A stretch of 62,911 bases of DNA from a virus, in the IMG/VR virus record IMGVR_UViG_3300045988_079349; one strand, written 5' to 3'. The notes under the pieces were generated by a model. That model did no database searches and was not told where the DNA came from. It worked only from the letters and a program-made list of their open reading frames with translations. Both the position numbers and the translations under genes were made by a program. Positions 1-58,768 of this stretch are shown in pieces (within the stretch, counting starts at the first letter, position 1; each line of letters starts with the position of its first letter).

Positions 1-84
1 CCGGCGCGAGCCCGTGGCTGTAGCTGTAGGAGCCGTAGTTCGCAGACCCATCGCCGTAGACACCGCAAACGAGGTTCGAGGCCC
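1..84 (-). repeat. DGR variable repeat VR2
   Basis: ccggcgcgagcccgtggctgtagctgtagg... is about 84 nt collinear with the TR at 60135-60233. All roughly 20 mismatches fall where the TR has T on the plus strand (A on the coding minus strand). The GC-rich 3' block GGGCTCGCGCCGG is identical to the one in the TR (IMH-like). Confidence 0.75.
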
Positions 85-448
85 AATTATCCTTTTCGGG
101 ACTTCCCCAAGGGGTAACCAACCAGAACGAATTCTTGATATGAGGAGTCAGAATATGATTGTACTTTCGGTATTCATCGAAAGTAAGGGGCGCGACAGTA
201 GTATTTAGTGTGCCGTACCCTTTATATCCATCCATTGCGGTGAGATCGACATCACGGGCGATAGCCTTGATACCGGTATTTTTAAACCAAGACTCAATGG
301 TCTTCCGCGAACCACTCTCTTTATAGTTATTGGAGTCTCCAAAAACAGAATAAATTTCTACCTCAAGGGCAATCACGAAGGGATTACCATTAATTTCGTC
401 AAGAACGAGGCACTTTACTCCATTTACAGTAATAGTTTCACCAATCAT
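1..448 (-). CDS. DGR target protein 2 (C-terminal C-type-lectin-fold carrying VR2); 3' end runs off the window start
   Basis: Minus-strand ATG near 446-448 (MIGETITVNGVKCLVLDEINGNPF...) reads without any stop to position 1. The C-terminus ...WLVTPWGSPEKDNWASNLVCGVYGDGSANYGSYSYSHGLAP aligns codon-for-codon with VR1 and with the AAC-rich TR. It is absent from the ORF track only because no stop lies inside the window. Confidence 0.7.
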   Translation of the reverse strand, partial: MIGETITVNGVKCLVLDEINGNPFVIALEVEIYSVFGDSNNYKESGSRKTIESWFKNTGIKAIARDVDLTAMDGYKGYGTLNTTVAPLTFDEYRKYNHILTPHIKNSFWLVTPWGSPEKDNWASNLVCGVYGDGSANYGSYSYSHGLAP

Positions 449-1897: not shown

Positions 1898-2041
1898 ATG
1901 AATTATTCGACTGTTTCTGTTAGATTAACAGAGGAAGAAAAAAAGACTTTAGAAGAGTTTGCGAAGGATAGAGATTTAACTATGTCGCAAGTAATTAGAA
2001 AAGCAGTAAAAGAATATATAGAAAACCATTCGAACGACTAA
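1898..2041 (+). CDS. ribbon-helix-helix (CopG/Arc-like) DNA-binding protein, 47 aa
   Basis: MNYSTVSVRLTEEEKKTLEEFAKDRDLTMSQVIRKAVKEYIENHSND; GAGAGGTG RBS; TGgTATAAT extended -10 about 35 nt upstream. Confidence 0.6.
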   Translation: MNYSTVSVRLTEEEKKTLEEFAKDRDLTMSQVIRKAVKEYIENHSND

Positions 2042-2057
2042 AGGAGACGAAAACAAA

Positions 2058-2276
2058 ATGACTAATAATTATAAGGTTTTTACTTTGAAGTTAGCTAGAA
2101 AGCTATGTGAGTTGGGATTTAAGGTTGTTGGAACAGCACCAAATGCTTAGAAACCTTGGTTAAATGTTTATCTTTTTGAAGATACTTAGGAATTAAGAGA
2201 AGCGATTGAGAAATATAAGGGACAAAGTTCGCTATTGGAGGATGATTGCCATGGCAGACAAAAGAAGAAGTCCTAA
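2058..2276 (+). CDS. small phage protein (DUF5659-like) read through two in-frame TAG codons
   Basis: AAGGAGA RBS then ATG. MTNNYKVFTLKLARKLCELGFKVVGTAPNA[TAG]KPWLNVYLFEDT[TAG]ELREAIEKYKGQSS...KKS then TAA. The family resemblance continues past both TAGs. Confidence 0.5.
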
Positions 2277-2427
2277 TTAGCGAACAGTAAGTCATATTCA
2301 TAAAGAGCCTTGTAATACTAATAATATATATGCTAGAATTAATAAGGATGCTTTATTTGCGGCGAGAAGAGAACTTAGTGATGGTGAGTTTTCTTTATGG
2401 ATATTTTTTGCTAGTTAGTCAGAGAAG

Positions 2428-2640
2428 TTGACAGATTATGATTTTGGCCCTACTATTATTGAGAGGGAGTTGGGTATAAAGAAAGCTAAATATACAAATG
2501 CAATAGAAGGATTGGTAGAAAAAGGGTATTTGATTCCTCTTGAGAAGAAGGGGTATTACGATTTTTACGAAGTTCCTAAAATTATTGACGAGGATAAATA
2601 TAATTATGTCGCTCCTAACGGAGAAAAATTTTCGTTTTAA
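2428..2640 (+). CDS. winged-helix DNA-binding protein (replication-initiator/RepA_N-like); N-terminus may extend upstream through TAG codons
   Basis: ORF track (TTG start). The upstream in-frame stretch KDALFAARRELSDGEFSLWIFFAS[TAG]SEKLTDYD... looks like the start of a Rep_N/wHTH domain but has no canonical start codon. Confidence 0.4.
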   Translation: MTDYDFGPTIIERELGIKKAKYTNAIEGLVEKGYLIPLEKKGYYDFYEVPKIIDEDKYNYVAPNGEKFSF

Positions 2641-8459: not shown

Positions 8460-8924
8460 TTAGTCCAGATTGTTGATATATTCAATAATGTTTGTAGTTT
8501 GGGGGTCTACGGTATCCCCTAAATGCCAGCCGTTTCTAATTTTGCCGTTATCATCAAAGAGGATAAACGGCGGTTCATAGAAACTACGGAATACACATTT
8601 AGCTTTAGTTGTTCCATACGCCACACAATGGCATTTATGGGCCGGAAATTTATGCCTTGCAAGCCATTCCTTTTTGGCGGCTGTGACTGCTTTCTTATAT
8701 TCAGGGGGGCTTTCAGGGGGCAACCATGTAATAACTCGAACCTCCCACCCGTTACTAATTGCGTTTAGAAGCGCATTTCGGAGGGCGTTCATATCCCACA
8801 TGGGGGCGGCGTCTCGGAATGGGCTGGGGTCTCCATCGCGGAGTTTTTCAAGCCAGTTGGGGACTGCGTATAGATCTGCAATTGTCCCGTCCATATCAAA
8901 GCAGAGCATTTTTTTAGTTATCAT
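8460..8924 (-). CDS. HAD-superfamily 5'(3')-deoxyribonucleotidase-like protein
   Basis: N-terminal HAD motif I LCFDMDGTIADLY; NT5C-like size and layout. Confidence 0.6.
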   Translation of the reverse strand: MITKKMLCFDMDGTIADLYAVPNWLEKLRDGDPSPFRDAAPMWDMNALRNALLNAISNGWEVRVITWLPPESPPEYKKAVTAAKKEWLARHKFPAHKCHCVAYGTTKAKCVFRSFYEPPFILFDDNGKIRNGWHLGDTVDPQTTNIIEYINNLD

Positions 8925-8954: not shown

Positions 8955-9179
8955 CTACCTGTTGCCTATCTTGTCAACAAGTTTTTCAAAGAAATTTTTA
9001 TGCCGATATACCTTATAAGGCATTGACGTATAATCCACATAAATTAGAGGGTCGCGCAAAAGAATAGCTTGCATATAGACCCCATAATTCTCTGTGGTGG
9101 TAGTACCACCAAATTGGCGGCGGTAGATTTCAGCCACAGTTAAACACTCATTAGGCCGAATAAACTTTGAAGGTTTCAT
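8955..9179 (-). CDS. hypothetical protein (74 aa)
   Basis: ORF track; AAGGAGGG RBS. Confidence 0.5.
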   Translation of the reverse strand: MKPSKFIRPNECLTVAEIYRRQFGGTTTTENYGVYMQAILLRDPLIYVDYTSMPYKVYRHKNFFEKLVDKIGNR

Positions 9180-9362: not shown

Positions 9363-9821
9363 TTAATTTTCTGCAAATTGAGCTAGAAATTGCGCAGAAA
9401 GTCGAACCATATCATGCGCTGATTCTTTATCGTTTTTATAGCAAATAAAGCCGATTACCTCACCTTCTGCAATAATAGGAGTAACAAACAACGATTTTCC
9501 CTTCCATTCAGTACCCCAATTACGAATATTGAACCATTCATCCGGGGTCTTTGACATTCCGAAGGGGCGAGGGCCGCACAAAAGACTTGAATTATCAAAA
9601 ACCGACGCTAAAATGCCGTTAATGCTTAAAACTTTTTGAATATGTGCGGCCTGAGGAGCAAAAGAAGATAGTAGGGAATATTTCTTGAAAACCACCCCGC
9701 CATCTTCAATAAAGATTTCTAGCGGGTCGCCTTCCCGAATATTCATATTCCGACGAATTTCCTTAGGAATTACTACCCGGCCGAGATCATCAATGCGCCG
9801 CACAATGCCAGTTGCTTTCAT
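9363..9821 (-). CDS. SpoVT/AbrB-family transcriptional regulator (AbrB swapped-hairpin N-domain plus GAF-like C-domain)
   Basis: MKATGIVRRIDDLGRVVIPKEIRRNMNIREGDPLEIF matches AbrB/SpoVT. The likely start is this ATG rather than the track's TTG at 9842. Terminator AGAGGGCcgaaGCCCTCT plus T-run at 9343-9362. Confidence 0.7.
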   Translation of the reverse strand: MKATGIVRRIDDLGRVVIPKEIRRNMNIREGDPLEIFIEDGGVVFKKYSLLSSFAPQAAHIQKVLSINGILASVFDNSSLLCGPRPFGMSKTPDEWFNIRNWGTEWKGKSLFVTPIIAEGEVIGFICYKNDKESAHDMVRLSAQFLAQFAEN

Positions 9822-10495: not shown

Positions 10496-10852
10496 TTAAA
10501 AATTTCCCTCTACATTGTCGCTACAAACCTCCCACCACATATCTTCATCCAGCAGGCCCAGCTCTTCAAGCCACCTGCAAAGTTCCTCTGCCTTTTTGGA
10601 AAGTGAAACCAGATGAACCATGCAATCCTGATCCCGGAAAACAAATATCTTGTCCTTTTCTTCGGTTTCCACTCCCTTCGGGACGGGTTCATTCCCATAG
10701 GCTTCGCCGCATTTCTGCATAAGCAGGCCCCGGTCAGTACCTACAATCTCCAGAAAATCGCCCTCGTTAATTCCGAGAGACTGGCGCACCTCCTTGGGGA
10801 TAACCACGCGTCCCAGATCATCCATCCTCCGAGTGATGCCGATAACTTTCAT
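10496..10852 (-). CDS. AbrB/MazE-family DNA-binding protein (118 aa)
   Basis: MKVIGITRRMDDLGRVVIPKEVRQSLGINEGDFLEIV. Confidence 0.7.
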   Translation of the reverse strand: MKVIGITRRMDDLGRVVIPKEVRQSLGINEGDFLEIVGTDRGLLMQKCGEAYGNEPVPKGVETEEKDKIFVFRDQDCMVHLVSLSKKAEELCRWLEELGLLDEDMWWEVCSDNVEGNF

Positions 10853-11652: not shown

Positions 11653-11898
11653 TTTCTTTTACTCCCTTTCTTGAGGGCTTTTGTTCTCCCCTCTTGATGG
11701 TCTAAGTATACCAGAACGGGAGGGGAAAGTCAAGCGATTTTGGGAAATTTCCTCTCGTCAATTTCACCAATAAACTGATCCAAAAATTGTGCAAATTGCC
11801 TCTTGACAAAAAATTCCGGCCGCTGCGCTCATGCGCGGCCGGCTGAACAATATATTTTGAATTGGAAAAGAAATTCCTCCCATTTTGGGAGGAAAATC

Positions 11899-12096
11899 TC
11901 AATCTACATATTCTCGATTTAAAACTTTTACAACCTCTTCAGGTTTACGTCGAGACCGGAAAAGAGCATCTTCATAGGAATAACCAGAGATATTGTCGGT
12001 CGAGCCATTTTCAAGCAAAATCTCAAATTCATACATATCTCTCAACTTCCTTTCTTTTGATAACTTAATTTTAACATAAGAATTTCGGGAAGTCAA
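11899..12096 (-). CDS. hypothetical protein (65 aa)
   Basis: ORF track only. Confidence 0.35.
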   Translation of the reverse strand: MTSRNSYVKIKLSKERKLRDMYEFEILLENGSTDNISGYSYEDALFRSRRKPEEVVKVLNREYVD

Positions 12097-12329
12097 TCGG
12101 TACTTTCAACAATTTTCATTCCATTTGCTTGTATAATTCGCATAGCTTCTTCAAGAGAAGTATTGTCAACGGAGCCACAGTCGATACAAATATATTTTCT
12201 GCCATCCTTTACCATAGTAGTGAAATAATATTCTTGACCAGAAACAAGGCCCATCTACTCTCGTAGTCTTACGGGAATCATGATGCGCCCACTTGAATCC
12301 AATTTCCTTGAGAAAGTAGTTTCTTGCAT
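12093..12329 (-). CDS. AbrB/MazE-like swapped-hairpin protein containing one in-frame TAG (78 aa)
   Basis: MQETTFSRKLDSSGRIMIPVRLRE[TAG]MGLVSGQEYYFTTMVKDGRKYICIDCGSVDNTSLEEAMRIIQANGMKIVESTD. The AbrB-domain alignment (RKVDELGRVVIPIELRRTLGI...) runs straight across the TAG. Confidence 0.55.
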
Positions 12330-12581
12330 TTTGATAAATAAATTCTAGTGACCTAGGTTCGTGCGAAAAACGACTCCATCACGGGAATCGCCGATTTGTA
12401 ACAATCGGAGGGAATAATTACCACTCGCAAGGCATTTTCTGGCAGAACTGAGCCATAGGACAATTCTTACAAGAATCCTAGTTCAAACAGAACTCCAGAA
12501 TGACCGCAAGAGCTTTCAGCACTTCTAAGGTTATTAGAAAACTCCTTTCTTTGTTTTTCTATATATATTATAGAATATTTT

Positions 12582-12616
12582 TTTAAAAAAAGCAAGGGCT
12601 GACTTATGCCAGCCCC
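12582..12616 (-). terminator. intrinsic terminator for gene 12710..12961
   Basis: Minus reads GGGCTGGCATAAGTCAGCCC followed by TTGCTTTTTTT. Confidence 0.5.
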
Positions 12617-12709: not shown

Positions 12710-12961
12710 TCACGCGGAAGTCTCTCGATAGTCATTGATAATCCCCTTTTCTGTAAAGAATCCGACAAGATGTTCTGCTGCACTGGACTTATGCGGAGTT
12801 ATCAACAACCACGCACCGCGAAGATTATCAATAGTCGATAAAGACCAGTCCGCGCCCATCTGACTAATTAAGCACTCGAAACTTGCTCGATCCTCAAGAG
12901 AGTTAAACGAAACTACATATTTTCCCATGCGGAAATCGACCTCCATAGAATTTTTTATCAT
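12710..12961 (-). CDS. hypothetical protein (83 aa)
   Basis: ORF track. Confidence 0.45.
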   Translation of the reverse strand: MIKNSMEVDFRMGKYVVSFNSLEDRASFECLISQMGADWSLSTIDNLRGAWLLITPHKSSAAEHLVGFFTEKGIINDYRETSA

Positions 12962-14303: not shown

Positions 14304-14681
14304 CTACTGCTGATTGAGTTCTTTTTGCTGGTCTTTCGTTGCCCAATCAAGAGAGGTTCTGACCGTCGGACGCTTGCGGTATTGCTCCGCCTCTGCCTCT
14401 GTGCCGCCTTTAGCTAAAGCGTAGGCTTTCCAGTCTATCGCTCCTTTAGCGGTAGTCTCTTTATAGACCACCGCATGAACGGCGCCCTTTATCTGGACTG
14501 TGCCGTACAGATAAGAGGTCTTATCCGTGGTCTTGAACTCTTTCCCCAAACGGGTGAAAAGCTCTTTCGCTTTGGCCTTGGCCGCTTTCTCTGCAACCTC
14601 TGCCGCCGCTACTGCTTGCTTAGCGGCTAAGTACTCCATGATGACCTTCCTATCATCATTAGTAAAATCAATCTTTTTCAT
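14304..14681 (-). CDS. hypothetical Ala/Lys-rich protein (125 aa)
   Basis: ORF track; promoter TTGACA..TGaTACAAT at about 14725-14765. Confidence 0.5.
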   Translation of the reverse strand: MKKIDFTNDDRKVIMEYLAAKQAVAAAEVAEKAAKAKAKELFTRLGKEFKTTDKTSYLYGTVQIKGAVHAVVYKETTAKGAIDWKAYALAKGGTEAEAEQYRKRPTVRTSLDWATKDQQKELNQQ

Positions 14682-15317: not shown

Positions 15318-15755
15318 TTAATGGTATAATTGATATTTTCTGCCAATCTTATCAATCTCCTCAGCTTCCATTGGCCTAAATCCAATACAAGTGAGAGTCC
15401 CTTCAGGACTCTCTTTTTCCAGCTCTGTCCTGCAAGCATCGTAAATCAAAAAGTAATCTTTATACTCCTCCATACCGAGCTCTTTAGCTGCTTCGACCGC
15501 CCGCAATAAATCATCTTTATTCTTCGCGCGGCAAACAACTTTAGTCTCTGCCCCCGTTATCCAATCATGGAATAAGTCTGTATCGAGACTTATATCCATA
15601 TGATACATAATGCCATCTCTTTCCCGAACCACTTCTTTGCTTCCCCAAAGAATCTTTTCCAAAAGAAAAGCAATAGAAGCATGGGAAACTTGCGCAGCTA
15701 GCTTACCCGGAGACATATTTAAATCTTTTCTAGCTATAATTAACTGTTTATACAT
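15318..15755 (-). CDS. pth2: peptidyl-tRNA hydrolase, PTH2 family
   Basis: LIIARKDLNMSPGKLAAQVSHASIAFL matches the PTH2 signature (vVRtDLkMgkGKiaAQcsHA). Confidence 0.65.
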   Translation of the reverse strand: MYKQLIIARKDLNMSPGKLAAQVSHASIAFLLEKILWGSKEVVRERDGIMYHMDISLDTDLFHDWITGAETKVVCRAKNKDDLLRAVEAAKELGMEEYKDYFLIYDACRTELEKESPEGTLTCIGFRPMEAEEIDKIGRKYQLYH

Positions 15756-16504
15756 TCTTTACCTGCTTTCAAAAATGCTCTAAAATTCTGGGAATTGCGG
15801 TCAGGAATTGCAAAATAAATATTTGGAATATTATAATTGCGAGCTGCGCCTATGAGCAAGGTTGCGACCGTATACGGATCTTGCATAAAAACTCCACAAC
15901 CCCAGGCTCCCGCGACTAGATTTTCCACACCGTTTTCCTCAGCAATCTGATACATAAAGTGAATTCGATTTTCAAGAACTCTATCATTCTCGCTTTTACT
16001 CACACTCTGGTATCTATGCGCCGTTCGGAAATTCGGGGCCGCGCAAGTTATAACATCTGCTTCCTTTTGTTTGTTATTCCGCTCGAATACTACACTAGGA
16101 GAATACAGCGCTCTATTCAAGTATAAAGCCTTATTTAACCTCTGCCGATTCCATGCGTAATACGTCCCATCAAAAGCAAGAAGAATAGGGTAAAGATTGG
16201 ATTCATGACACAGAGCCTCTTCTTGCGCAGGACTACCTTCTAGGAAGAAACCACCAGGACTTTTATAACTGGCATAGTTAAGAATTGCTGTTCTACCATT
16301 GTCAGATAAGTTGAATAGACAAGATACGCTATCCATATCTGTTAGAGTAAAAGCTGGTTTCTGATTGCCGGATTCATGCTGTGTAAAAGAATCTGGACTA
16401 TATACATATGTGCGCTCGATAGATAATTTAGTGTTTGCGGCAAGTCTAGTTTTAATATCTTCATAATGAGCTCGTGCCTTGATTGCGCGCTCCTGTTTTG
16501 TCAT
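15740..16504 (-). CDS. macro-domain / bacterial PARG-like protein (TIGR02452/DUF2263 family)
   Basis: NYASYKSPGGFFLEGSPAQEEALCHESNLYPIL and LVAGAWGCGVFMQDP match the DUF2263 PARG-like signature motifs. Confidence 0.6.
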   Translation of the reverse strand: MTKQERAIKARAHYEDIKTRLAANTKLSIERTYVYSPDSFTQHESGNQKPAFTLTDMDSVSCLFNLSDNGRTAILNYASYKSPGGFFLEGSPAQEEALCHESNLYPILLAFDGTYYAWNRQRLNKALYLNRALYSPSVVFERNNKQKEADVITCAAPNFRTAHRYQSVSKSENDRVLENRIHFMYQIAEENGVENLVAGAWGCGVFMQDPYTVATLLIGAARNYNIPNIYFAIPDRNSQNFRAFLKAGKECINS

Positions 16505-16703
16505 CGCGGCCTCCTTTTATAAAAATGCCGTTGGGCAAAATTAAATAATTGTCTTATTTTATTTTTCAAATAAAGTGTGTTGAGTTTTTAATTCCTCGAT
16601 CTTCTACTTTAACTCTTTGTTTTCTTTTATTACTTTTGCATATTCGCATGAATCATCGCATCTAATTGGATCATACTATTGATGCAATCTAAGATAACAA
16701 TAA

Positions 16704-17063
16704 TCAATGCATGGGTTCATATTTACACCCCTTTATTCTACAATCTAGTAAACACTGTCCTGTAGCTCCATCACAGGGAATTGCATCAGGGTAATCCTCA
16801 AAATAAGACGAAGCTAATAGGACTTCATACCCGAGTTCTCGCAATATTCTTTCTGCGATATATCTATTCCTCAGCTTTACCCATTCTTCTCTATTTATTT
16901 TTGTTTCTCTGTATATTTCTCTGGATTTCTCCATATCTACTGTTATGCTGCCATCAATATTAGTCTTAAATGTTGAATCCTGTGTACGATAAAATTCTCG
17001 AAAAGGATTTTCAATATGAAGAACCTCTCTAGCATAATTATCAAAATCTTCTGAGAATTTCAT
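16704..17063 (-). CDS. hypothetical protein (ATG overlaps the folD stop as TAATGA)
   Basis: Track ORF 16704..17096; the more likely start is MKFSEDFDNY at about 17063. Confidence 0.5.
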   Translation of the reverse strand: MKFSEDFDNYAREVLHIENPFREFYRTQDSTFKTNIDGSITVDMEKSREIYRETKINREEWVKLRNRYIAERILRELGYEVLLASSYFEDYPDAIPCDGATGQCLLDCRIKGCKYEPMH

Positions 17064-17854
17064 TATCTTCGCGCCTGTTTCGCTAACTATAAGCAATTTT
17101 TCATCAACCCCAATCTAGTCAATAATCCCACCCCTCCGGGCACAGGAGTTGACCACACTTCATTTCTCTTTGCAATATCTTCAAGTTCAACAAAATCGCC
17201 TTGAATAAAATTCGCCTAATTTCTACGAATACCAACATCAACAACAATAGCGTGAGGGCAAGCCTCTCTTGTCAAAGTAAAATCTCCAACTGCGGATACT
17301 ACTAAATCTGCTATTCTTGCTAAATAAAGCTTCGCATTTACATTTGTTTTACTGTGACAGATAGATACAGTCATATTTCTCGCCAACAACTCTTTCGCCA
17401 TTGGCTTACCAACTATATTACTTCTACCTAATATTAAAGCACTTTTACCTTCATACTTAAAACCACAGTCATCAAGATAGTCTACTATTCCTCTTACCGT
17501 TGCCGGTAAAACAAGAGTAGAAGAAGTTAAACCGTCGCAGTCTTTTATCGTAGGAATTACATCAATAGAAAAAGAACTCAATGAATCTCTTAGTGGCATT
17601 TGTGCTATAATACAATCAGTATCTATACTATTTATGTAATTATTTAAATCTGCGGGAGTCCAGTGTTCTGGAACTTTAATCACGCTTACTGGCCATCCTA
17701 ATTCATCAAAGTCGTCTACTTTTTTCTATATATAAATCTAATTTCCGGCATCCCCGTTAGTTGCATCAATTATGGTCAATGATGGCTTGACATCGGACTG
17801 CCGCAATTCATCTTTCTATTGTTTAAAATATTCTTTTATGTTAATCTATTGCAT
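17063..17854 (-). CDS. folD: FolD-like bifunctional methylene-THF dehydrogenase/cyclohydrolase, translated through 6 in-frame TAG codons
   Basis: Joins the track ORF 17216..17683 to both of its flanks through TAG. N-terminus ...TIIDATNGDAGN[TAG]IYI[TAG]KKVDDFDELG...CIIAQMPL; core GRSNIVGKPMAKELL...VVDVGIRRN[TAG]ANF...; C-terminus ...TPVPGGVGLLT. Confidence 0.75.
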
Positions 17855-18179
17855 CTGGTTCTAGCCCCCATGGATCATCAGTATCATAATCAATCATATC
17901 ATAGAATGATATTTTGTTATTAGGCGTTATTTCTAAAACCTAATGTGGGATACAACATATTTCATAATCAGAATCTCTATCTAAATTATATGAAGCATAA
18001 ATATGCAAAGCCGTTGGTCTTGCATTATTGATATTTTGAACATCCCATAAGTCAACAGTGTTTTTATGTCCAAGTATGTCTGTTAGAACTTCTGGCTATA
18101 CTGCTATGCTTATAATTAAAATGTTAAAGTAATACTATGCTCGTTTTGGTAATTCAGAATAGGGTGTATCGAAAAACAT
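17841..18179 (-). CDS. hypothetical protein (112 aa) with 3 in-frame TAG codons
   Basis: GGAGG RBS then ATG; MFFDTPYSELPKRA[TAG]YYFN...IPH[TAG]VLEITPNNKISFYDMIDYDTDDPWGLEPDAID then TAA. Confidence 0.4.
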
Positions 18180-18294: not shown

Positions 18295-19008
18295 ATGAAG
18301 AAAACACATTGTATTTATATGCATAAAAACAAGATTAATGGGAAAATTTATGTTGGTCAAACATTTTAGGATAATCCTAATGCTAGATGGCAAAACGGGC
18401 ATGGATATATAAAACAGCCAAAGTTTTTTTCAGATATTATAAAATACGGATGGATAAATTTTGAACATATTATTTTAGAAGAAAACTTAACGCAATAGGA
18501 GGCGAATGAAAGAGAAAATTTTTGGATTCAATATTTTGATAGTTGTAAAAATGGGTATAATACAATTTCAGAGAATAATAGATCAGAGGTATAGAAAAAA
18601 ACAACAAATAGCCTTATTGTATGCTTAAATACAAATAAATCATATAAAACATTAAAAGAAGCGTCTTTGGATACCGGAGTTGATCCATCTGCAATTTCAA
18701 GATGTTATGGAGGATAGCGTAAAAGTGCAGGAATAATAAATGGTGTTCCTGGGTTTTGGATTTTAACAACATCGGATAAAAGCCTTATTAATAAAATAAA
18801 AAATAATTATAATGATGCTATAAGAAAGATAGTTTGTGTTGAGACTTCTAGAATTTTTAATTCTTTAGATGAGGTAATAGAATATTGTGGATTGCCAGTA
18901 TCTTCTTCAAATAGAGCAAGATTAAAAAGTATTTTAAAATATAAGACAAATTCTTCTTTTGGGCGAGATAAAGAGTTAAATATAAAATTACATTGGAGTT
19001 ATCTATAA
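18295..19008 (+). CDS. GIY-YIG homing endonuclease (I-TevI-like, with NUMOD DNA-binding repeats); 4 in-frame TAG codons
   Basis: MKKTHCIYMHKNKINGKIYVGQTF[TAG]DNPNARW...FEHIILEENLTQ[TAG]EANERENFWIQYFDS...; NUMOD-like IVCLNTNKSYKTLKEASLDTGV and IVCVETSRIFNSLDEVIEYCGLP; TAA stop. Confidence 0.7.
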
Positions 19009-20131: not shown

Positions 20132-21304
20132 GTGAGTCATTATTGTAAAAAATGTGGTAAGACTATGGATGATACATAGTTTTATACATCAAAGAATATA
20201 GAAAAATATCCTCCAGATGGAAAGATGGATATTTGTAAAAAGTGTCTTACTATGCACGTAGATAATTGGGATCCAGAAACTTATAAATGGATTTTATAGG
20301 AAATTGATGTTCCATATATCAAAGAAGAGTGGAATGGCTTATTGGAGAGGTATGGAAAAGATCCAAAGAAGGTTACTGGATTAACCATTATTGGACGCTA
20401 TTTATCCAAAATGAAATTAAAACAATGGAATAAGTATACTTGGGCAGATACAGAGGCACTAGAGAAGGATTCAACCGAGAAAAAAGTTCTTAATATGAAA
20501 GCTCAAGGATTTACAGAGGATGAAATTCAAGAGCAATTAGCTATTGATAGAACTCCACCAAAACCGAAAGAATTGGAAGATGTTTAGGCTCCAGTTGGAA
20601 CTCCAGAATATCAAGATCCAGAAGAGGAAGAAGACGACTTTAGTGATTAGCTAACAGAAGAAGATAAATTAATGCTTCGTCTTAAATGGGGTCGAGGCTA
20701 TTCTTGGGAAGAAAGAGTAAGAATGGAGTAGCTCTATAAAGATATGATGAGTTCATATGATATTTAGGGAGCTGGACATAAAGATACTCTTATTATGGTA
20801 TGCAAGACTAGTTTAAAAGCAAATTAGTTAATTGATGCTGGAGATATTGATGGCTTTTAGAAAATGTAGAAGGCCTATGATAGCTTAATGAAAAGTGGAA
20901 AGTTCACTGCCGCCTAGAATAAAGGAGAATCCGGCGAATTTGTTGATTCTATTGGTGAGTTAGTAGCATTATGCGAGAAAGAAGGGTTTATTCCTAGATA
21001 TTATACTGATGGGCCATAGGATAAAGTAGATAGAACTCTTTAGGATTTGTAGCAATATACGCATACTCTAGTTACAGAAGAAATGAATCTTGGTAATATG
21101 ATTGAAGCTTCTTTGAGAGAAATCGTGAAAGATAAAGAGCGCGAAGCCAATATTGATGTTGAAGATAGTGATGAGGATGAAGATTTATTTAATTATGAAC
21201 ATCCAGAACTGACAGAAGAAGATTATCAAGAGTATGAGGATATGAAAGAATCTGAAAGAGATAAAGATGAAGAAATGTTAAATAGCATACTAAAGGAGGT
21301 TTAA
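20132..21304 (+). CDS. hypothetical protein (~390 aa): N-terminal zinc ribbon, acidic C-terminal tail; positional candidate for the small terminase/packaging protein
   Basis: GTG start; CKKCGKTMDD...CKKC; in frame with the track fragments 20342..20587 and 21083..21304; about 17 TAGs. Confidence 0.4.
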
Positions 21305-26338: not shown

Positions 26339-27028
26339 ATGGCTAAGAGTTCTAAAAGATTAGGTAATGCTACTTTTGTCCAATATGGATATGGTCAAGT
26401 AGAACCAAACCATCTTTCCGCTCCAAGAAATGGTCAGGTATATGCTCAGCTTCCTGCTGCTAGCACAATCACCCTTCTTGAGAATGGTCAATTCGTAAAG
26501 TATGACTATGCTAAGGGTGTATGTGATTTTAGCACAGAGGCTACTTCTGGTGCTTGGATGATGGTATTCAATGAGGTAAAAATTTATAGAGATCGTGAGA
26601 CTGATGCCGATTTTGCTATGATTAAAGATAACTATAACGCTCGTGTTTATAGCCCAATCGGACAGACCGTTTCTACACTCGCTACCATTAATGACTATAC
26701 TGGTGAAGCTGTACGTGAAGGTAGTAACGTAGCATATAAAAAGAATATGGAAACATTTACTTATCCAGCTTTGATGCCAGAAGGAACTAAAATGGTTCCA
26801 CGTGTAATTAAGATTAGTATTGGTGATATTTGGACAACTAATACTATTAAGGCTGATGCCGGTTCACTTGCTGTTGGAGATCGTTTAAAGATTGGTACTG
26901 ATGGTTATTTAACCGAGGATACTGAATCTTCTGCTAAGGGTGGAGATTTAGATCCTATCTTTACAGTAGTAAAAGTATACACCATGCCCGATCTTCAACC
27001 CGGTGTAAAAGTACAGCGTGTAGGTTAA
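26339..27028 (+). CDS. TAG-free structural protein (229 aa), possibly head decoration/auxiliary capsid protein
   Basis: ORF track; lies between the scaffold and capsid genes. Confidence 0.45.
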   Translation: MAKSSKRLGNATFVQYGYGQVEPNHLSAPRNGQVYAQLPAASTITLLENGQFVKYDYAKGVCDFSTEATSGAWMMVFNEVKIYRDRETDADFAMIKDNYNARVYSPIGQTVSTLATINDYTGEAVREGSNVAYKKNMETFTYPALMPEGTKMVPRVIKISIGDIWTTNTIKADAGSLAVGDRLKIGTDGYLTEDTESSAKGGDLDPIFTVVKVYTMPDLQPGVKVQRVG

Positions 27029-27047
27029 TTGGAAGGAGTGAAGAAGA

Positions 27048-28100
27048 ATGTTAGATAAAGCTAATTTACTTAGTTTAATGAAGACTGTCGCCAATGCAAA
27101 TCCTTCTGGTACCTATAGCTATCAAGGAGAATCCTTTAGCTACGACGCTTTGAACACCACTTTGCGCAATGAGTTAAATGAGCTTGTTGGCACAGATGAA
27201 CTTTATAGAGAAAATAAACATACTCTATTCTCTTTAATTGAGCAAACTATGGATGAAGTTGTTCCTAATCGTTTACTCAATTCTTATGGCAATTTTGCCG
27301 AGATTAGAACTTTCGGACAGGGAGATAAACCTGTATTTACTCGTAGAACTGGACTTACCCGTGCTAAGCAATTCATCACTCGTGTGGGACTTGCTGGCGT
27401 ATACGAGACCTTTAAGCTCGGTTCTGAGAGCTTCGAAGTTGGTACAAGTGCTATCGGCGGAGCTGCTCGTATCGGATTCGAGGAGTTCCTCGACGGAAGA
27501 GTAAACTTCGCAGAACTTACTCAGATTGTAACTGAGGGTATGCAAGAGCTTATTTATAGAGAGATTGCTCAAGCTCTTATGGGTTCTATTAATCAGCTTC
27601 CCGCGGCAAACCGTTGTGCCGTTGCTGGTTTTGATGAAGCTACTATGGATTATCTTGTAAATACTGCTAGTGCTTATGGTCAGCCCACTATTTACTGTAC
27701 TCGTGAGTTTGCAGTAAAGATGATTCCAGACAACGAGGCTTGGATTTCTGATAACATGAGAGATCAGTATTGGGGAACTGGATACCTTGCTAACTACAAG
27801 GGAACTAGAGTGGTAATTCTACCTCAAACCCTTGAGGATGAGACTAACTCTAGAAAGATGATTGACCCTGGTTATGCTTGGGTTATCCCCGGTGGAGCAG
27901 ATACTCGTCCTGTTAAAGTTGCTTTTGAGGGTACTACTCACGTGCGCGAGCGCGATGATAACGACGACTGGTCTCGTGATATTCAGGTTTACCGCAAGGT
28001 CGGAGTTGGCGTAATGATGGCAAATAACATTTTCTCTTACGTTGATACTGAACTTCAAGGTGAGCTTGATAATACTAACCCAAATCCAAATAATGGTTAA
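27048..28100 (+). CDS. major capsid protein (putative HK97-fold), 350 aa, TAG-free
   Basis: ORF track; position after the scaffold gene; strong terminator immediately downstream. Confidence 0.6.
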   Translation: MLDKANLLSLMKTVANANPSGTYSYQGESFSYDALNTTLRNELNELVGTDELYRENKHTLFSLIEQTMDEVVPNRLLNSYGNFAEIRTFGQGDKPVFTRRTGLTRAKQFITRVGLAGVYETFKLGSESFEVGTSAIGGAARIGFEEFLDGRVNFAELTQIVTEGMQELIYREIAQALMGSINQLPAANRCAVAGFDEATMDYLVNTASAYGQPTIYCTREFAVKMIPDNEAWISDNMRDQYWGTGYLANYKGTRVVILPQTLEDETNSRKMIDPGYAWVIPGGADTRPVKVAFEGTTHVRERDDNDDWSRDIQVYRKVGVGVMMANNIFSYVDTELQGELDNTNPNPNNG

Positions 28101-28102
28101 TT

Positions 28103-28140
28103 AAAAGGGGATAGGGAAATATCCCTATCCCCTTTATTTA
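28103..28140 (+). terminator. intrinsic terminator after the capsid gene
   Basis: AGGGGATAGGGAaatATCCCTATCCCCT followed by TTATTTA. Confidence 0.6.
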
Positions 28141-28161
28141 TTGAGAAAAAGGAGATATAAT

Positions 28162-28698
28162 ATGAAAGATAAGTGTATTGTTTATAATAAAAGTGCGGGC
28201 CGCGCGGTATATAAACTGCCTGAGCTTGGTGTACGTCGTATGTTCTATCCAGGTGAGCATAAAGAGATTAGTGTATCTGAGCTTGAAAAGTTGGTTCAAA
28301 CACCCGGAGGCCGCAAGCTGATTTATAATTATCTATTAATTGATGATAAAGAAATTATTGAATATCTTATTAATGGGAAAGTTGAACCAGAATATTGGTT
28401 AAAAGAGAAAGATATTGATTCGTGGATGCAGTCATGCTCTTTGGATGAATTCAAGGATGCTCTTGATTTTGCCCCTGATGGGACAAAAGATTTGATTAAG
28501 GCTCACGCGGTTTCTCTTCCTTTGAATGATATTTCAAAGCGAGATGCGATAGAAAAACAATTAGGTTTTAACGTTACTAAAGCGTTGGAATTAACCGCGG
28601 ACGAAGGAAAAAATTCTAAAAATGAGGTTAAGCCTGTTAGAAGAGCATCGGTTGCAAGTGATGATACTCCAAAGCGTAGAGTAACTATATCCGAGTAA
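28162..28698 (+). CDS. hypothetical protein (178 aa from the internal ATG), TAG-free
   Basis: Track ORF 28141..28698; AAAAAGGAGATATAAT RBS before MKDKCIVYNK. Confidence 0.5.
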   Translation: MKDKCIVYNKSAGRAVYKLPELGVRRMFYPGEHKEISVSELEKLVQTPGGRKLIYNYLLIDDKEIIEYLINGKVEPEYWLKEKDIDSWMQSCSLDEFKDALDFAPDGTKDLIKAHAVSLPLNDISKRDAIEKQLGFNVTKALELTADEGKNSKNEVKPVRRASVASDDTPKRRVTISE

Positions 28699-31842: not shown

Positions 31843-33237
31843 ATGCGTTTTGGTATTCGTGAGATTTGCGATGTAGTGCTTCGTGCGAAGAGTTATCAAA
31901 CCCTTGGTAATCGTAAGTTCTACAAAAATGAACCAGTTTTATATTTCGACACTTTAAGAACCTCTACTCTTGAGGGTGCTGCAACAACAGTATATGCGCA
32001 GGGCGGACGTGGATATTCTAGATTGATTGCTTGGGAAGGTGAGCGTACTCTAACCTTTACAATGGAAGATGCTCTACTTTCTCCAGAAAGCTTCTCTATT
32101 CTTTCTGGTGCTGGCCTACTTGATGCAACAAAAGAAGCTCCTATCTATGTTCACCAGACTTCTCAGATTGAAGTTGAGACTGCCAATACTATTATTGTTC
32201 CAGACAAGGCTTGCTGGAATGGATTTACTGACCATGATAATGAAATGTATCACCGTTCTGCCGACATCTTTGTGATGGTGTTAGGCGATGATGGTCAAGT
32301 TAATGCCGAGCCTTGTATTCCTGTTTCTGTAAGTTACACAGAAGATGGCAAAACAACTTTAACTTGTTATTCTCATGCTGGCGTACTTCCTGCGGGAACC
32401 ATTGTTTTAGTTGACTACTATGTAAAGCGTACCGGTGGAGCACAGATGATTGAAATTACTGCTGATAAGTTTGGTGGTAACTATTATCTTGAGGCTTCAA
32501 CTCTATTCCGTCGTGAGAGCGATGGCGTAGATATGCCTGCTGAATTTATTATTCCTAACTGTAAAGTTCAGAGTAACTTCACATTCAGTATGGCAGCTAA
32601 CGGAGATCCTTCTACCTTTACCTTTACAATGGACGCTTTCCCTGATTACACCAAGTTCGACCAAACCCATAAGGTATTGGCTGCAATTCAAGTAATCACT
32701 GATGAAAGCGGTGAAACCGAGGAAACTCGTGAGCCATGCTCTGAGAATGTAGGTACTTATGAGAGCGAAGCTGCTGATGTGACTGTAAGTTTCGTATCTA
32801 ATAGTGCTACAGCCGCAGAGCTTGATGTTACTGGTAGTGTAACAGGAAAGGCTTATGACACTGAGACTTATGGCGATACTATAGCAGAAGCTGCTCAGAT
32901 CAGCCTGCAAATCCCAGTAGAGAGTGATAGTACCCAATATAATGTGGTAACTACAAACCCAGCTTATGAGAGATACTTCTCTACAGACCCAGGAATTGAA
33001 GGTAATACAAAGACTCAAACCGTTAGCGGCGAAGAGTTAGCTCAAGGATTGCTTGTAATTCTTACTAGCGAAGATCAGGCAACTCCTATTACCGCAAAGA
33101 TTAATAAGATTAATGGTGATTTTGAAAAGACTTATACCATTAATAACAAACTTAGCTTTGCTACATCTGCCGCAGCAAAAGCTAAGACTAGCACCCGCAA
33201 TAAGTTAGTCTCTGTCACCGAGGATGACGGAATTTAA
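31843..33237 (+). CDS. major tail (tube) protein with an Ig-like C-terminal extension (464 aa), TAG-free
   Basis: ORF track; AAGGAGG RBS; lies upstream of the chaperone and tape measure genes; strong terminator after it. Confidence 0.5.
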   Translation: MRFGIREICDVVLRAKSYQTLGNRKFYKNEPVLYFDTLRTSTLEGAATTVYAQGGRGYSRLIAWEGERTLTFTMEDALLSPESFSILSGAGLLDATKEAPIYVHQTSQIEVETANTIIVPDKACWNGFTDHDNEMYHRSADIFVMVLGDDGQVNAEPCIPVSVSYTEDGKTTLTCYSHAGVLPAGTIVLVDYYVKRTGGAQMIEITADKFGGNYYLEASTLFRRESDGVDMPAEFIIPNCKVQSNFTFSMAANGDPSTFTFTMDAFPDYTKFDQTHKVLAAIQVITDESGETEETREPCSENVGTYESEAADVTVSFVSNSATAAELDVTGSVTGKAYDTETYGDTIAEAAQISLQIPVESDSTQYNVVTTNPAYERYFSTDPGIEGNTKTQTVSGEELAQGLLVILTSEDQATPITAKINKINGDFEKTYTINNKLSFATSAAAKAKTSTRNKLVSVTEDDGI

Positions 33238-34794: not shown

Positions 34795-35325
34795 ATGACT
34801 TTTAAAGATTTGGGGCTTGAGCCTAAAGTTAAATATACAGAAGTAAAGGTTGGAGCAGATAAGATTTTGTCTGTGGCTAATTATCTTCCTATTGCTGATA
34901 AAACAAATCTTATTATGTTTGTCACTGATTTATCAATAGATGAGGCAACTGGCTGTTTTAGTCCAGTTAGAGTGGAGACCTATTTTGCTATTGCTATATG
35001 CAGATGGTATGGCGGAATTACTTTTGAGCCAGAAGATGTGCATGAAAATATCGCAAAAACCTATGACACTCTTGAGACAAACAGTGTAATTGATGCAATT
35101 CGTGATATTATTCCGGTGGAGGAACTATCTTTTATTGAGGATTTAGTTAAGGATACTATAAGCGATATTTCAAGATATAATAGTTCTGCGGCCGGCATTA
35201 TTCAGATGATGAATAAAAATGCTTCTGGTCTTGATACATATATTACTGATATGCTAGAAAAGATTAAGAATGGTGAAAATCTTGAAACACTATCAGTAAT
35301 TAAAGATGTGGTTGGAAAAGATTAA
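34795..35325 (+). CDS. tail assembly chaperone candidate (176 aa), TAG-free
   Basis: ORF track; immediately precedes the tape measure gene; terminator-like hairpin at about 35375-35410. Confidence 0.4.
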   Translation: MTFKDLGLEPKVKYTEVKVGADKILSVANYLPIADKTNLIMFVTDLSIDEATGCFSPVRVETYFAIAICRWYGGITFEPEDVHENIAKTYDTLETNSVIDAIRDIIPVEELSFIEDLVKDTISDISRYNSSAAGIIQMMNKNASGLDTYITDMLEKIKNGENLETLSVIKDVVGKD

Positions 35326-57976: not shown

Positions 57977-58616
57977 AACTCAATTCAATAGCTTTTAATT
58001 CATCTATTGAATTAGCTCCAAATATCTAGGTTTTATATTCTTGCATTAAGTGGTATTTTGGATATACCGCATTAGAAATAGCTAAACTTAGAGCGGATAA
58101 TTGCTCTAAAGTCCATGGTACACACTCTTCGTGTCGAGCGTGCCACTCAAGCGTAGGATTTTCTACTTCAGCAGCTACAGCCACCTAGAATTGATTGAGA
58201 TTTAAGCTAATCTCAGATTGGTCCTCCTACGTAATTCCATATTCTTTTCCATCGACCCAAGTTAACGGGTGGGTAGCAAGATACTCTGCGAATAGTTTCT
58301 TGTTTTCCTCTTGTTTATCATATTTTGCCTAATCTAAATCAGCGATGAAAGTACCATCTTCTTGATTATACTTTGAATAGTTAGGAATGACGTTTGATGG
58401 AATTGTTTCCAACTCTAATACTGTAACAGCATTAGGTTGATTTAATACATCGGCTTTGACTAGAGTGTAATGAGTATCACTATCTGAGCCGATAACCCCA
58501 GTTCCCTCTTCTTCCTCGCAGGCAACGACAATACCATTTGAGGATTGCAGTTTAATGTAACGTGCTTCTGAAAGAATATCAACTACTATATTCTCTCTAT
58601 TTAATAGAATATACAT
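57954..58616 (-). CDS. hypothetical protein (~220 aa) with 4 in-frame TAGs
   Basis: Track ORF 58329..58616 continues through the TAG at 58329 to a TAA at about 57954. Confidence 0.4.
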
Positions 58617-58768
58617 TACTTTATTTCAACTCCTTTGAATAATGAACGAAAATAATTGTCCATGTCCTGAATTATATAAAAGCAAGTTCCTTTAGAAATA
58701 TGCGCCCTCCAGCCCTAATAAGATTTCTAAACTTCTTCAGTTGAAATTTTATTATCTAACCATAAAGC

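What the first reader, a model, noticed from the sequence alone, without database searches (positions are those of the whole stretch)
12093..12329. An AbrB-like regulator with a single in-frame TAG among otherwise standard-code early genes, and a DUF5659-like gene (2058-2276) with two
The AbrB swapped-hairpin domain alignment continues seamlessly across the TAG (IPVRLRE-TAG-MGLVSGQEYYF). Without suppression only a 24-aa stub would be made. This may be a suppression-dependent switch that senses onset of the late phase.
Basis: partly seen in the sequence, partly recalled or inferred. Interest (0 to 1): 0.6.

Follow-up and report, generated by a model that had tools for sequence, protein, structure and literature searches.

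The report
Amber-interrupted AbrB-like regulator in recoded phage
A small phage gene for an AbrB-type DNA-binding protein contains a TAG "stop" that this phage reads as glutamine, so the protein can be completed only once the phage has switched the cell's genetic code; this is a clear new example of an already described phenomenon.

Summary
Window 12329-12093 (minus strand) is a 78-codon ORF with one in-frame TAG at codon 25 (12257-12255).

The window is a TAG->Gln recoded phage: late genes carry up to about 100 in-frame TAGs.

In 37 related loci:
- The TAG sits at codon 25, 32 or 40, or is absent.
- Where a TAG column also holds other codons, these are CAA/CAG (always so at codon 25), or other residues at the variable positions.
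- The 24 codons upstream are under strong purifying selection.
- "Short" database homologs are standard-code gene-calling artefacts.

So one 78-aa divergent AbrB/SpoVT-superfamily protein is made by reading TAG as Gln. A relative encodes tRNA(CUA) behind an early-type promoter.

The gene is not unique. A 38-codon Cys-rich ORF in the same small transcription unit, an RHH/DUF5659/HTH-like cassette (1.9-2.6 kb) and a 53-codon ORF (16.6 kb) also carry TAGs, inside an otherwise TAG-free early block (0 TAG vs 417 CAR at clade level; this unit 11 vs 62, p=4e-10).

TAG<->CAR turnover in the unit matches late genes, and nine of 33 relatives in the ortholog table have no TAG in it. The protein therefore depends on suppression, but nothing shows the TAG is a selected "sensor". 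This is a new member of a known kind (Borges et al. model).

The parts
12093..12329 (-). 78-codon CDS for a divergent AbrB/SpoVT-superfamily protein (ATG 12329-12327, stop TGA 12095-12093)
   Evidence: Translation. Homologs of 76-80 aa. AbrB N-domain profile match, E about 1e-4. hhalign to the window's Pfam-positive AbrB paralog: 87%, E 3.8e-6. PHROG 4681. Foldseek top hits are all AbrB/SpoVT/MazE, but weak.
12255..12257 (-). In-frame TAG, codon 25, decoded as Gln
   Evidence: Column 25 in 32 orthologs: TAG 7, CAA 13, CAG 12. TAG25 also found in two further lineages, L056-L059.
12418..12534 (-). 38-codon Cys-rich ORF upstream in the same unit (MTLEVLKALAVILEFCLNQDSCKNCPMAQFCQKMPCEW in relatives). 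In-frame TAG at codon 19 (12480-12478). In the window its start codon is ATA instead of ATG.
   Evidence: TAG at codon 19 or 32 in 21 of 33 loci. ATG in all relatives. SD GGAG at 12545-12542.
12567..12595 (-). Conserved sigma70-like promoter of the unit: -35 TTGCTT (12595-12590), 17-nt A/T-rich spacer, -10 TATAAT (12572-12567)
   Evidence: Read. TATAAT and TTGnnT are conserved in the 18-sequence alignment. It falls below the scan threshold because the -35 matches only 3 of 6.
12595..12616 (-). Intrinsic terminator ending the upstream gene (12710-12961); marks the 5' boundary of the unit
12366..12408 (-). Two hairpins between the small ORF and the AbrB-like gene. Hairpin 1 is 12408-12391. Hairpin 2 (CGATTCC..GGAGTCG, 12390-12371) is followed by a T-run (12370-12366). 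Candidate internal terminator or attenuator.
   Evidence: RNAalifold on 12 sequences: 7-bp stem kept, 2 pairs with compensatory changes.
12342..12356 (-). Highly conserved motif CTAGGTCAnTAGAAT about 13-27 nt upstream of the ATG (possible operator, -10-like element or 5'-UTR element). No Shine-Dalgarno precedes the ATG.
   Evidence: Unique in the window, not a repeated promoter motif.
11899..12036 (-). 45-codon ORF downstream in the unit (own RBS aaggaag), function unknown
   Evidence: Orthologs in 25 loci, TAG in 1. No Pfam, PHROG, PADLOC or NCBIfam hit.
11874..11894 (-). Intrinsic terminator closing the unit
2058..2276 (+). DUF5659-family gene with TAGs at codons 31 (2148-2150) and 44 (2187-2189)
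   Evidence: Relatives have 2-3 TAGs, at other positions in distant clades.
1898..2640 (+). Cassette around the DUF5659 gene: RHH/CopG protein 1898-2041 (no TAG in the window; TAG in relatives) and a 129-aa HTH_36-like protein 2251-2640 (2 TAGs)
9363..9821 (-). TAG-free AbrB/SpoVT-type paralog (152 aa)
   Evidence: PF04014 43.7 bits, TIGR01439 50.2 bits.
10496..10852 (-). TAG-free AbrB-type paralog (118 aa)
   Evidence: PF04014 34.4 bits, TIGR01439 38.8 bits.

Best explanation
The window is part of a roughly 147-kb gut phage of Firmicutes that decodes TAG as glutamine (code 15) in part of its genes. It is a distant relative of 'Phage Phass-1'. The ORF 12329-12093 is one intact gene. Ribosomes carrying the phage's amber-suppressor tRNA(CUA) read codon 25 as Gln and make a 78-aa protein. 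Its first ~50 residues form a divergent AbrB/SpoVT-type swapped-hairpin DNA-binding domain, followed by a short C-terminal helix. The gene lies in its own small transcription unit: weak sigma70-like promoter, 38-codon Cys-rich ORF, hairpin/T-run, AbrB-like gene, 45-codon ORF, terminator. This unit sits inside a block of TAG-free early genes driven by consensus host-type promoters. In this unit TAG is used like any other Gln codon, as it is in late genes. The unit therefore belongs to the class of genes whose products are made only after suppressor tRNA has accumulated. As a consequence, the full-length regulator cannot be made at the very start of infection. Shown: read-through as Gln; one polypeptide; membership of the AbrB superfamily at profile level; contrast with neighbouring genes; a suppressor tRNA in a close relative. 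Inferred: DNA binding, delayed timing, and any role in shutting off early genes or turning on late ones.
For: Recoding of the genome: ORF coverage jumps from 31.7 kb to 82.2 kb when TAG is treated as sense, and late ORFs carry 3-103 in-frame TAGs. TAG = Gln in this gene: in 32 orthologs the TAG is at codon 25 (7 sequences), 32 (6) or 40 (11). Column 25 otherwise holds only CAA/CAG; columns 32 and 40 are variable positions that hold CAA/CAG or other residues. Two more TAG25 lineages are seen in L056-L059. This implies at least 5 independent CAR<->TAG changes. One polypeptide: the 24 codons upstream of the TAG show 11 synonymous vs 1 non-synonymous codon differences (window vs L003), 9 vs 2 (vs L031) and 7 vs 0 (L014 vs L010). 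The AbrB-domain alignment spans the TAG. Contrast with neighbours, one representative per clade: unit 11 TAG/62 CAR, other early genes 0/417 (Fisher p=4e-10), late genes 250/500. Over all loci, about 1170 early Gln codons include only 2 TAGs. TAG behaves as a neutral synonym: TAG<->CAR switches are 2/7 in the unit vs 20/69 in late genes (clades A vs C), and 2/7 vs 3/63 (D1 vs D2, p=0.07). Nine of 33 recoded relatives have no TAG in the unit. Suppressor: tRNA with anticodon CUA at L055 8938-9013, on the same contig as the L007 ortholog. It lies on the same strand as the early block, about 440 nt downstream of a perfect TTGACA-17-TGnTATAAT promoter. Phass-1 also has tRNA-Sup-CTA (PMC10607447). 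Separate unit: flanking terminators; conserved promoter, leader and hairpin. General model: Borges et al., bioRxiv 10.1101/2021.08.26.457843.
Against: No suppressor tRNA lies in the window itself; it was found only in a relative whose AbrB-like protein is 88% identical. The single sequence does not reach the curated AbrB thresholds (PF04014 18.3 vs 24.7 bits; TIGR01439 17.5 vs 28.3). The monomer AF2 model is only moderately confident (pLDDT 69.8) and its Foldseek E-values are >= 0.0097. No Shine-Dalgarno precedes the ATG at 12329, so how translation starts is unclear. Timing is inferred from codon usage only; there are no expression data. The unit's TAG share (15%) is lower than in late genes (33%, p=9e-4), so it is not a typical late gene either.
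Confidence: 0.75

Rival explanations
1. Selected translational gate. The TAG is kept by selection so that the regulator, although its mRNA can be made early by host RNA polymerase, is completed only when suppressor tRNA has built up. The protein then flips transcription from early to late, for example by repressing the strong early promoters.
For: TAG islands inside the TAG-free early block fall on small DNA-binding-type proteins: the AbrB-like protein, RHH, DUF5659 and an HTH-like protein. Every TAG-bearing ortholog has exactly one TAG. Closely related clades carry it at different codons (A: 25, C: 32; D1: 25, D2: 40), which could reflect replacement that keeps one TAG. The D1/D2 turnover is nominally higher than in late genes (2/7 vs 3/63, p=0.07). 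The unit has a host-type -10 box. Borges et al. propose exactly this logic for lysis regulators.
Against: Nine of 33 recoded relatives have no TAG in either gene of the unit. Turnover is statistically the same as in late genes. The TAG share in the unit roughly tracks genome-wide TAG use: the window's super-clade is high in both, L009/L012 low in both. Two AbrB paralogs in the same block are TAG-free. None of this excludes a useful delay, but it gives no sign of selection for the TAG itself.
Confidence: 0.2
2. The TAG is a true stop. The locus is a split or decaying gene that gives a 24-aa peptide and/or a separate 53-aa protein started at the adjacent ATG (12254).
For: TAG-ATG are adjacent, a layout that permits termination-reinitiation. 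A weak purine-rich 'gagag' precedes that ATG. Standard-code gene callers report 50-56-aa products (P0024, P0042, P0043). At least two early genes in this genome seem to end at TAG (8955-9179 and 14304-14681).
Against: There is strong purifying selection on the upstream 24 codons, including between TAG-bearing lineages. The AbrB domain needs both halves. TAGs at codons 32 and 40, and TAG25 followed by CTC in L028/L029, leave no downstream ATG. CAA/CAG is found at the same site in relatives. All 'short' homologs have the upstream part in their DNA.
Confidence: 0.03
3. The protein is the antitoxin of a type II toxin-antitoxin or addiction module (the PHROG 4681 label), not a phage transcription regulator.
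For: PHROG 4681 'antitoxin', E 7e-8. MazE/AbrB-type fold. The small neighbouring Cys-rich ORF is repeatedly inactivated in relatives by frameshifts, Cys->Tyr changes, TAG->TAA, and ATG->ATA in the window, as can happen to toxic genes.
Against: No recognisable toxin is present: the 38-aa and 45-aa neighbours have no Pfam, PHROG, NCBIfam or PADLOC match and are far smaller than MazF, VapC or Doc. A conserved terminator-like hairpin separates the small ORF from the AbrB-like gene.
Confidence: 0.05

Closest known systems
Stop-codon (TAG->Gln, code 15) recoding in gut phages with a standard-code early phase (Borges et al. 2021/2022; Ivanova et al. 2014; Peters et al. 2022; 'Phassvirus' group, Babkin et al. 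2023)
   Same: Late structural genes are full of in-frame TAGs. An early block is free of them. TAG is almost unused as a terminator. A phage tRNA(CUA) sits in a large tRNA region. Hosts are presumed to use the standard code. The idea that in-frame stops hold back proteins until the code switch is already published for lysis regulators.
   Different: Here the recoded genes include small DNA-binding-type regulators embedded as separate little units inside the early block. The per-site TAG/CAA/CAG turnover across about 12 clades is documented for one such gene. This phage family is not in GenBank phage records. Phass-1 is only 51% identical in a head-module protein (probably the major capsid protein, by position) and has no ortholog of this gene.
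Bacillus subtilis AbrB / Abh / SpoVT N-terminal domain (swapped-hairpin beta-barrel transition-state regulators; PDB 1z0r, 2k1n, 1yfb, 2fy9, 2ro5)
   Same: Residues 1-34 align position for position with AbrB 1-34, including the GR(I/V)xIP motif and the arginines matching AbrB R8, R15 and R23. The size of the N-domain and the secondary-structure order agree.
   Different: It is below curated family thresholds. Position 24 is E/D instead of R. The C-terminal part (invariant YICIDCG, then one helix) is unrelated to the AbrB or SpoVT C-domains. The protein is phage-encoded and interrupted by a recoded stop.
MazE/AbrB-type antitoxins (PHROG 4681, PF04014)
   Same: Same fold superfamily and a similar length.
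   Different: No partner toxin is present (see membership test).
Programmed stop-codon read-through (e.g. Q-beta A1 protein, MuLV gag-pol)
   Same: A protein is extended past a stop codon.
   Different: In those systems the stop is fixed in position, is read through at low efficiency, and both products function. Here the TAG moves between Gln codons and is replaced by CAA/CAG in relatives, which is the signature of true reassignment.

Membership tests
Code-15 (TAG->Gln) recoded phage gene | The in-frame TAG aligns with Gln codons in homologs | tested here: met
   Column 25: TAG 7, CAA 13, CAG 12. Columns 32 and 40 hold TAG alongside CAA/CAG and other residues at these variable positions. Further TAG25 lineages.
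Code-15 (TAG->Gln) recoded phage gene | The genome has many in-frame TAGs in essential late genes, and TAG is depleted as a terminator | tested here: met
   Stop-codon census (almost all TAA/TGA).
Code-15 (TAG->Gln) recoded phage gene | Phage-encoded suppressor tRNA with CUA anticodon | tested here: inconclusive
   Absent from the 62.9-kb window. Present in a close relative's contig (L055 8938-9013). The rest of this genome could not be read.
Code-15 (TAG->Gln) recoded phage gene | Direct evidence (peptides) that Gln is inserted at TAG | not testable with these tools
   Needs proteomics. Shown for crAss-like phages by Peters et al. 2022 (PMC9523058, listed; not read).
SpoVT/AbrB superfamily (swapped-hairpin DNA-binding domain) | Sequence match to the family models above curated thresholds | tested here: not met
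   PF04014 18.3 vs 24.7 bits; PF02381 21.2 vs 23; TIGR01439 17.5 vs 28.3. This applies to the single sequence only.
SpoVT/AbrB superfamily (swapped-hairpin DNA-binding domain) | Profile-level homology to bona fide members | tested here: met
   Family profile vs PDB: AbrB 1z0r/2k1n/1yfb E 1.2-1.6e-4, Abh 1.2e-3. hhalign vs the Pfam-positive paralog: 87%, E 3.8e-6. PHROG 4681 E 7e-8.
SpoVT/AbrB superfamily (swapped-hairpin DNA-binding domain) | Conserved DNA-contacting arginines (AbrB R8, R15, R23, R24; their roles are from the AbrB literature, recalled) | tested here: inconclusive
   R8, R15 and R23 are invariant in the family and align with AbrB. Position 24 is E/D.
SpoVT/AbrB superfamily (swapped-hairpin DNA-binding domain) | Predicted fold matches solved members | tested here: inconclusive
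   AF2 monomer pLDDT 69.8. The nine best Foldseek PDB hits are all AbrB, SpoVT, C56 or histone-like AbrB-fold proteins, but E is 0.0097-0.5. The fold is an intertwined dimer, which a monomer model cannot show.
SpoVT/AbrB superfamily (swapped-hairpin DNA-binding domain) | Dimerisation and DNA binding | not testable with these tools
   Needs biochemistry.
Type II toxin-antitoxin module (MazE/AbrB-type antitoxin) | An adjacent cognate toxin gene (MazF, VapC, Doc, etc.) | tested here: not met
   The neighbours of 38 and 45 aa have no hits in Pfam, PHROGs, NCBIfam or PADLOC.
Programmed translational read-through signal | A stop codon conserved in position across homologs | tested here: not met
   The TAG is at codon 25, 32 or 40, or absent.

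The most novel reading that the evidence does not exclude
The TAG codons in the small regulator units embedded in the early block (AbrB-like plus Cys-rich ORF; RHH/DUF5659/HTH-like cassette) act together as a translational timer. Their mRNAs are made by host RNA polymerase from the start, but the proteins appear only when phage tRNA(CUA), itself driven by an early promoter, passes a threshold. These proteins then shut off the consensus early promoters and/or license late transcription. On this reading the code switch is wired directly into the transcription cascade, rather than only protecting lysis and structural genes. The TAG-ATG junction in several lineages could additionally give a truncated 53-aa isoform before the switch and the full DNA-binding form after it.
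Probability: 0.25. Interest if true: 0.65.

Novelty: new member of a known kind. Interest (0 to 1): 0.4.

Why it matters
It is a clean, well-controlled example showing that, within one phage genome, TAG-free and TAG-bearing genes are separated at the scale of single small operons. Presence of TAG can therefore be used as a read-out of when a gene is translated. It also points to specific candidate regulators (an AbrB-like protein, an RHH protein, a DUF5659 protein) that can be made only after the code switch. These are natural targets for testing how recoding phages coordinate the early-to-late transition. Practically, it shows that public protein databases hold many broken fragments of this family (24-, 39- and 50-56-aa pieces) because genes were called with the standard code.

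Tried and rejected
1. A repeated phage promoter motif. The conserved CTAGGTCAnTAGAA upstream of the gene occurs no more often in the window than in shuffles, so it is local to this gene.
2. A leader-peptide attenuator that senses TAG suppression (small ORF with TAG, then hairpins and a T-run). The two hairpins do not overlap, and a ribosome at the leader's TAA would cover only hairpin 1. I found no alternative pairing that would open the terminator, so the model is not supported. It remains untested.
3. Excess TAG turnover as a sign of selection. Not significant against late genes.
4. Promoter type as a timing marker. Consensus sigma70 promoters precede both TAG-free and TAG-rich genes, so this is uninformative.
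5. Toxin-antitoxin reading. No toxin found.
6. Suppressor tRNA search. There is none in the window or in L001-L051 by ARAGORN, Rfam, blastn with the Phass-1 suppressor, or my own CUA-loop scan. It was found only after walking about 18 kb along a relative's tRNA region.
7. A 117-nt tRNA with an insertion in the anticodon arm (L051 4894-5010). I could not assign an anticodon.
8. GenBank phage searches with the locus DNA and with the protein gave no match. Rfam found nothing in the window.
9. A weak freyrasin/ranthipeptide hit of the Cys-rich ORF (E 0.045) was dismissed as noise.

Full report
**1. What is in the sequence**

On the minus strand, window 12329-12093 is a 78-codon frame: MQETTFSRKLDSSGRIMIPVRLRE-TAG-MGLVSGQEYYFTTMVKDGRKYICIDCGSVDNTSLEEAMRIIQANGMKIVESTD-TGA. 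The TAG is codon 25 (12257-12255) and is followed directly by ATG. The second gene named in the finding, 2058-2276 (+), has TAGs at codons 31 and 44. Read with TAG=Q, it passes the Pfam DUF5659 cut-off across both TAGs.

**2. The genome is recoded**

Treating TAG as sense raises long-ORF coverage from 31.7 to 82.2 kb, whereas treating TGA as sense does not have this effect.
- The plus-strand block from about 18.3 to 57.5 kb holds large ORFs with 3-103 in-frame TAGs. It includes a 2932-codon ORF and a head-module protein (probably the capsid protein, by position) that is 51% identical to one in Phage Phass-1.
- The minus-strand block from about 0.4 to 16.5 kb consists of small ORFs that are almost all TAG-free. 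Most are preceded by perfect or near-perfect TTGACA-17-TGnTATAAT promoters and separated by intrinsic terminators. The scan found 78 promoter-like sites against 50.6 expected, and 40 terminators against 16.8 expected.
- I read this as an early, host-polymerase-driven block, by analogy with the host-takeover modules of SPO1-like phages. That analogy is my own knowledge, not a test.
- The block encodes a PTH2 peptidyl-tRNA hydrolase, a microbial-type PARG and two clear AbrB-type proteins.

**3. TAG is glutamine in this gene, and the gene is one polypeptide**

A database search found 43 homologs, most 76-80 aa, with Q at position 25. Some of these could have been called with code 15, so I fetched the DNA of 33 related loci.
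- The TAG is at codon 25 in the window, L001/L002, L031/L032 and L028/L029. It is at codon 32 in L003-L008 and at codon 40 in eleven loci. It is absent in ten loci.
- At codon 25, sequences without TAG have CAA or CAG (E or R in two distant homologs outside the 32-sequence alignment). At the variable codons 32 and 40 they have CAA/CAG or other residues.
- Two more distant lineages also have TAG25 (L056-L059).
- This needs at least five independent CAR<->TAG changes.
- The 24 codons before the TAG differ mostly synonymously between lineages: 11 vs 1, 9 vs 2, and 7 vs 0. They are therefore translated and constrained.
- Codon 26 is not a conserved ATG. It is CTC in L028/L029, and there is no ATG after the TAGs at codons 32 and 40.
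- The short database entries (24, 39 and 50-56 aa) are pieces of this gene cut at TAG by standard-code gene callers. For P0042 and P0043 I confirmed the upstream part in the DNA.

**4. What the protein is**
- The family profile matches the N-domains of B. subtilis AbrB, Abh and SpoVT over residues 1-34 (E 1.2e-4 to 0.09).
- It matches the window's own Pfam-positive AbrB paralog by hhalign (87%, E 3.8e-6) and PHROG 4681 (E 7e-8).
- R8, R15 and R23 are invariant.
- The single sequence stays below the curated Pfam and NCBIfam cut-offs.
- The AF2 monomer model is moderate (pLDDT 69.8). Its best PDB matches are all AbrB-fold proteins, but with weak scores.
- I file it as a divergent member of the SpoVT/AbrB superfamily with its own C-terminal part (invariant YICIDCG plus one helix). 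DNA binding is inferred.
- The 'antitoxin' label is not supported, because no toxin-like neighbour exists.

**5. Its surroundings**

The gene sits between two minus-strand terminators, 12616-12595 and 11894-11874. Between them, in order:
- a conserved but non-consensus promoter (TTGCTT-17-TATAAT, 12595-12567);
- an SD and a 38-codon Cys-rich ORF (12534-12418) with its own TAG (codon 19, 12480-12478);
- two hairpins, the second followed by a T-run (12408-12366); its 7-bp stem is kept in 12 diverse sequences, with two compensatory pairs;
- a highly conserved motif, CTAGGTCAnTAGAAT (12356-12342), that is unique in the window;
- the AbrB-like gene, which has no Shine-Dalgarno;
- a 45-codon ORF (12036-11899).

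In the window the small ORF's start codon is ATA, whereas every relative has ATG. In several relatives the small ORF is broken in other ways.

**6. How unusual is a TAG here?**

I built an ortholog table over 33 loci.
- Across about 20 neighbouring early genes, about 1170 aligned Gln codons contain only 2 TAGs.
- The AbrB-like gene has a TAG in 23 of 33 loci and the Cys-rich ORF in 21 of 33.
- With one representative per clade: unit 11 TAG/62 CAR, other early genes 0/417 (p=4e-10), late genes 250/500.
- TAG is also nearly unused as a terminator. The exceptions are two early genes in the window's own clade that seem to end at TAG (8955-9179 and 14304-14681), whose orthologs end within 1-9 codons.
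- The unit is not the only island. The plus-strand RHH/DUF5659/HTH-like cassette (1898-2640) and a 53-codon ORF (16559-16720) also carry TAGs at Gln sites that differ between clades.

**7. Gate or by-product?**
- All relatives are recoded, but to different degrees: 6% to about 58% of late Gln sites are TAG.
- Nine loci have no TAG in either gene of the unit.
- Between genome pairs, TAG<->CAR switches in the unit are as frequent as in late genes: 2/7 vs 20/69; at most a hint at 2/7 vs 3/63, p=0.07.
- TAG therefore behaves in this unit as a normal synonymous Gln codon. The simplest reading is that the unit belongs to the set of genes translated once suppression is on.
- Dependence on suppression is real for the window's gene. 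Selection for the TAG as a sensor is not shown.

**8. Where suppression comes from**

The window has no tRNA. In close relatives, a tRNA region of about 35 genes starts about 7 kb beyond window position 1, on the strand of the early genes.
- It includes tandem tRNA-Gln(UUG/CUG), a tmRNA and an insertion-bearing tRNA.
- Further along, contig ...084596 carries a tRNA with anticodon CUA (L055 8938-9013). It lies about 440 nt downstream of a perfect early-type promoter.
- Phass-1 likewise has tRNA-Sup-CTA in its tRNA region (PMC10607447).
- This fits the published model in which early expression of the suppressor turns on the alternative code (Borges et al.).

**9. Comparison with what is known, and verdict**

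The phenomenon is already described: code-15 phages with a standard-code early phase, in which in-frame stops hold back proteins. What is added here:
- a documented case in a divergent AbrB-like regulator;
- the fine-grained mosaic of TAG-bearing regulator units inside a TAG-free early block;
- per-site evidence of TAG/CAA/CAG interchange.

I rate it a new member of a known kind, of moderate interest. The more novel reading is a translational timer wired into the transcription cascade. It is not excluded, and I give it a probability of about 0.25.

Noticed in passing
window 58616-59833 (-), 60130-60255 (-), 60853-60978 (-), 2-127 (-): A diversity-generating retroelement. It has a reverse transcriptase (PF00078, 60.9 bits, 6 in-frame TAGs) and a template repeat rich in AAC. 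There are two variable repeats, at the C-termini of the 588-aa protein 60851-62617 and of the ORF at the window start. They differ from the template almost only at template adenines, and the C-termini are hypervariable among relatives.
   Followed up: partly
window 12418-12534 (-) and orthologs in L001-L033, L058, L059: The 38-aa Cys-rich ORF is strongly conserved between distant clades yet repeatedly damaged in individual genomes. The damage includes ATG->ATA in the window, 1-2-nt indels (L003, L005, L010), 8-11-nt deletions (L013, L017) and TAG->TAA (L018/L019). There are also recurrent Cys->Tyr changes at the CKNC motif in at least six genomes. Unexplained; it could mean the peptide is costly or toxic in some hosts.
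   Followed up: partly
window 8955-8957 and 14304-14306 (-): Two early genes (8955-9179 and 14304-14681) appear to end at TAG; their orthologs end at TGA or TAA within 9 and 1 codons. If so, TAG serves as a stop for early genes and as Gln elsewhere in the same genome. After the switch, the 8955 gene would fuse in frame to the downstream HAD-like gene (8460-8924).
   Followed up: partly
window 26339-28698, 31843-33237, 34795-35325 (+): Five late-block genes have no TAG at all, although their neighbours have many. They include the capsid-like 27048-28100 and a virion protein at 31843-33237. These are probably the most highly expressed virion proteins, which avoid the suppressed codon.
   Followed up: no
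window 15318-15755 (-) and 15740-16504 (-); L051 2025-2340: The early block encodes a PTH2 peptidyl-tRNA hydrolase (83 bits) and a microbial-type PARG (91 bits). Relatives encode a tmRNA (RF00023, 114.6 bits) inside the tRNA region. Ribosome-rescue functions in a recoding phage may deal with ribosomes stalled at TAG.
   Followed up: no
L051 4894-5010 (= L049 1418-1534): A 117-nt tRNA was detected only by Rfam (49.8 bits). It has a roughly 44-55-nt insertion in the anticodon arm and lies next to the tandem tRNA-Gln genes. Its anticodon could not be assigned.
   Followed up: partly
window 16559-16720 (-): A 53-codon Cys-rich/coiled-coil ORF with two in-frame TAGs lies between TAG-free genes. Its orthologs have TAGs in 8 of 9 loci. 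It is another isolated TAG-bearing gene at the edge of the early block.
   Followed up: partly
window 17063-17887 (-) and 18295-19008 (+): A FolD-like methylene-THF dehydrogenase/cyclohydrolase (7 TAGs) and a GIY-YIG nuclease (4 TAGs) mark the boundary between the TAG-free and TAG-rich regions. Both are preceded by near-consensus sigma70 promoters, so promoter type does not separate the two classes.
   Followed up: no
L001/L002, ortholog of window 20165-21304: In the 99%-identical relatives, the TAA stop of this late gene is replaced by TAG, which under code 15 would extend the protein.
   Followed up: no
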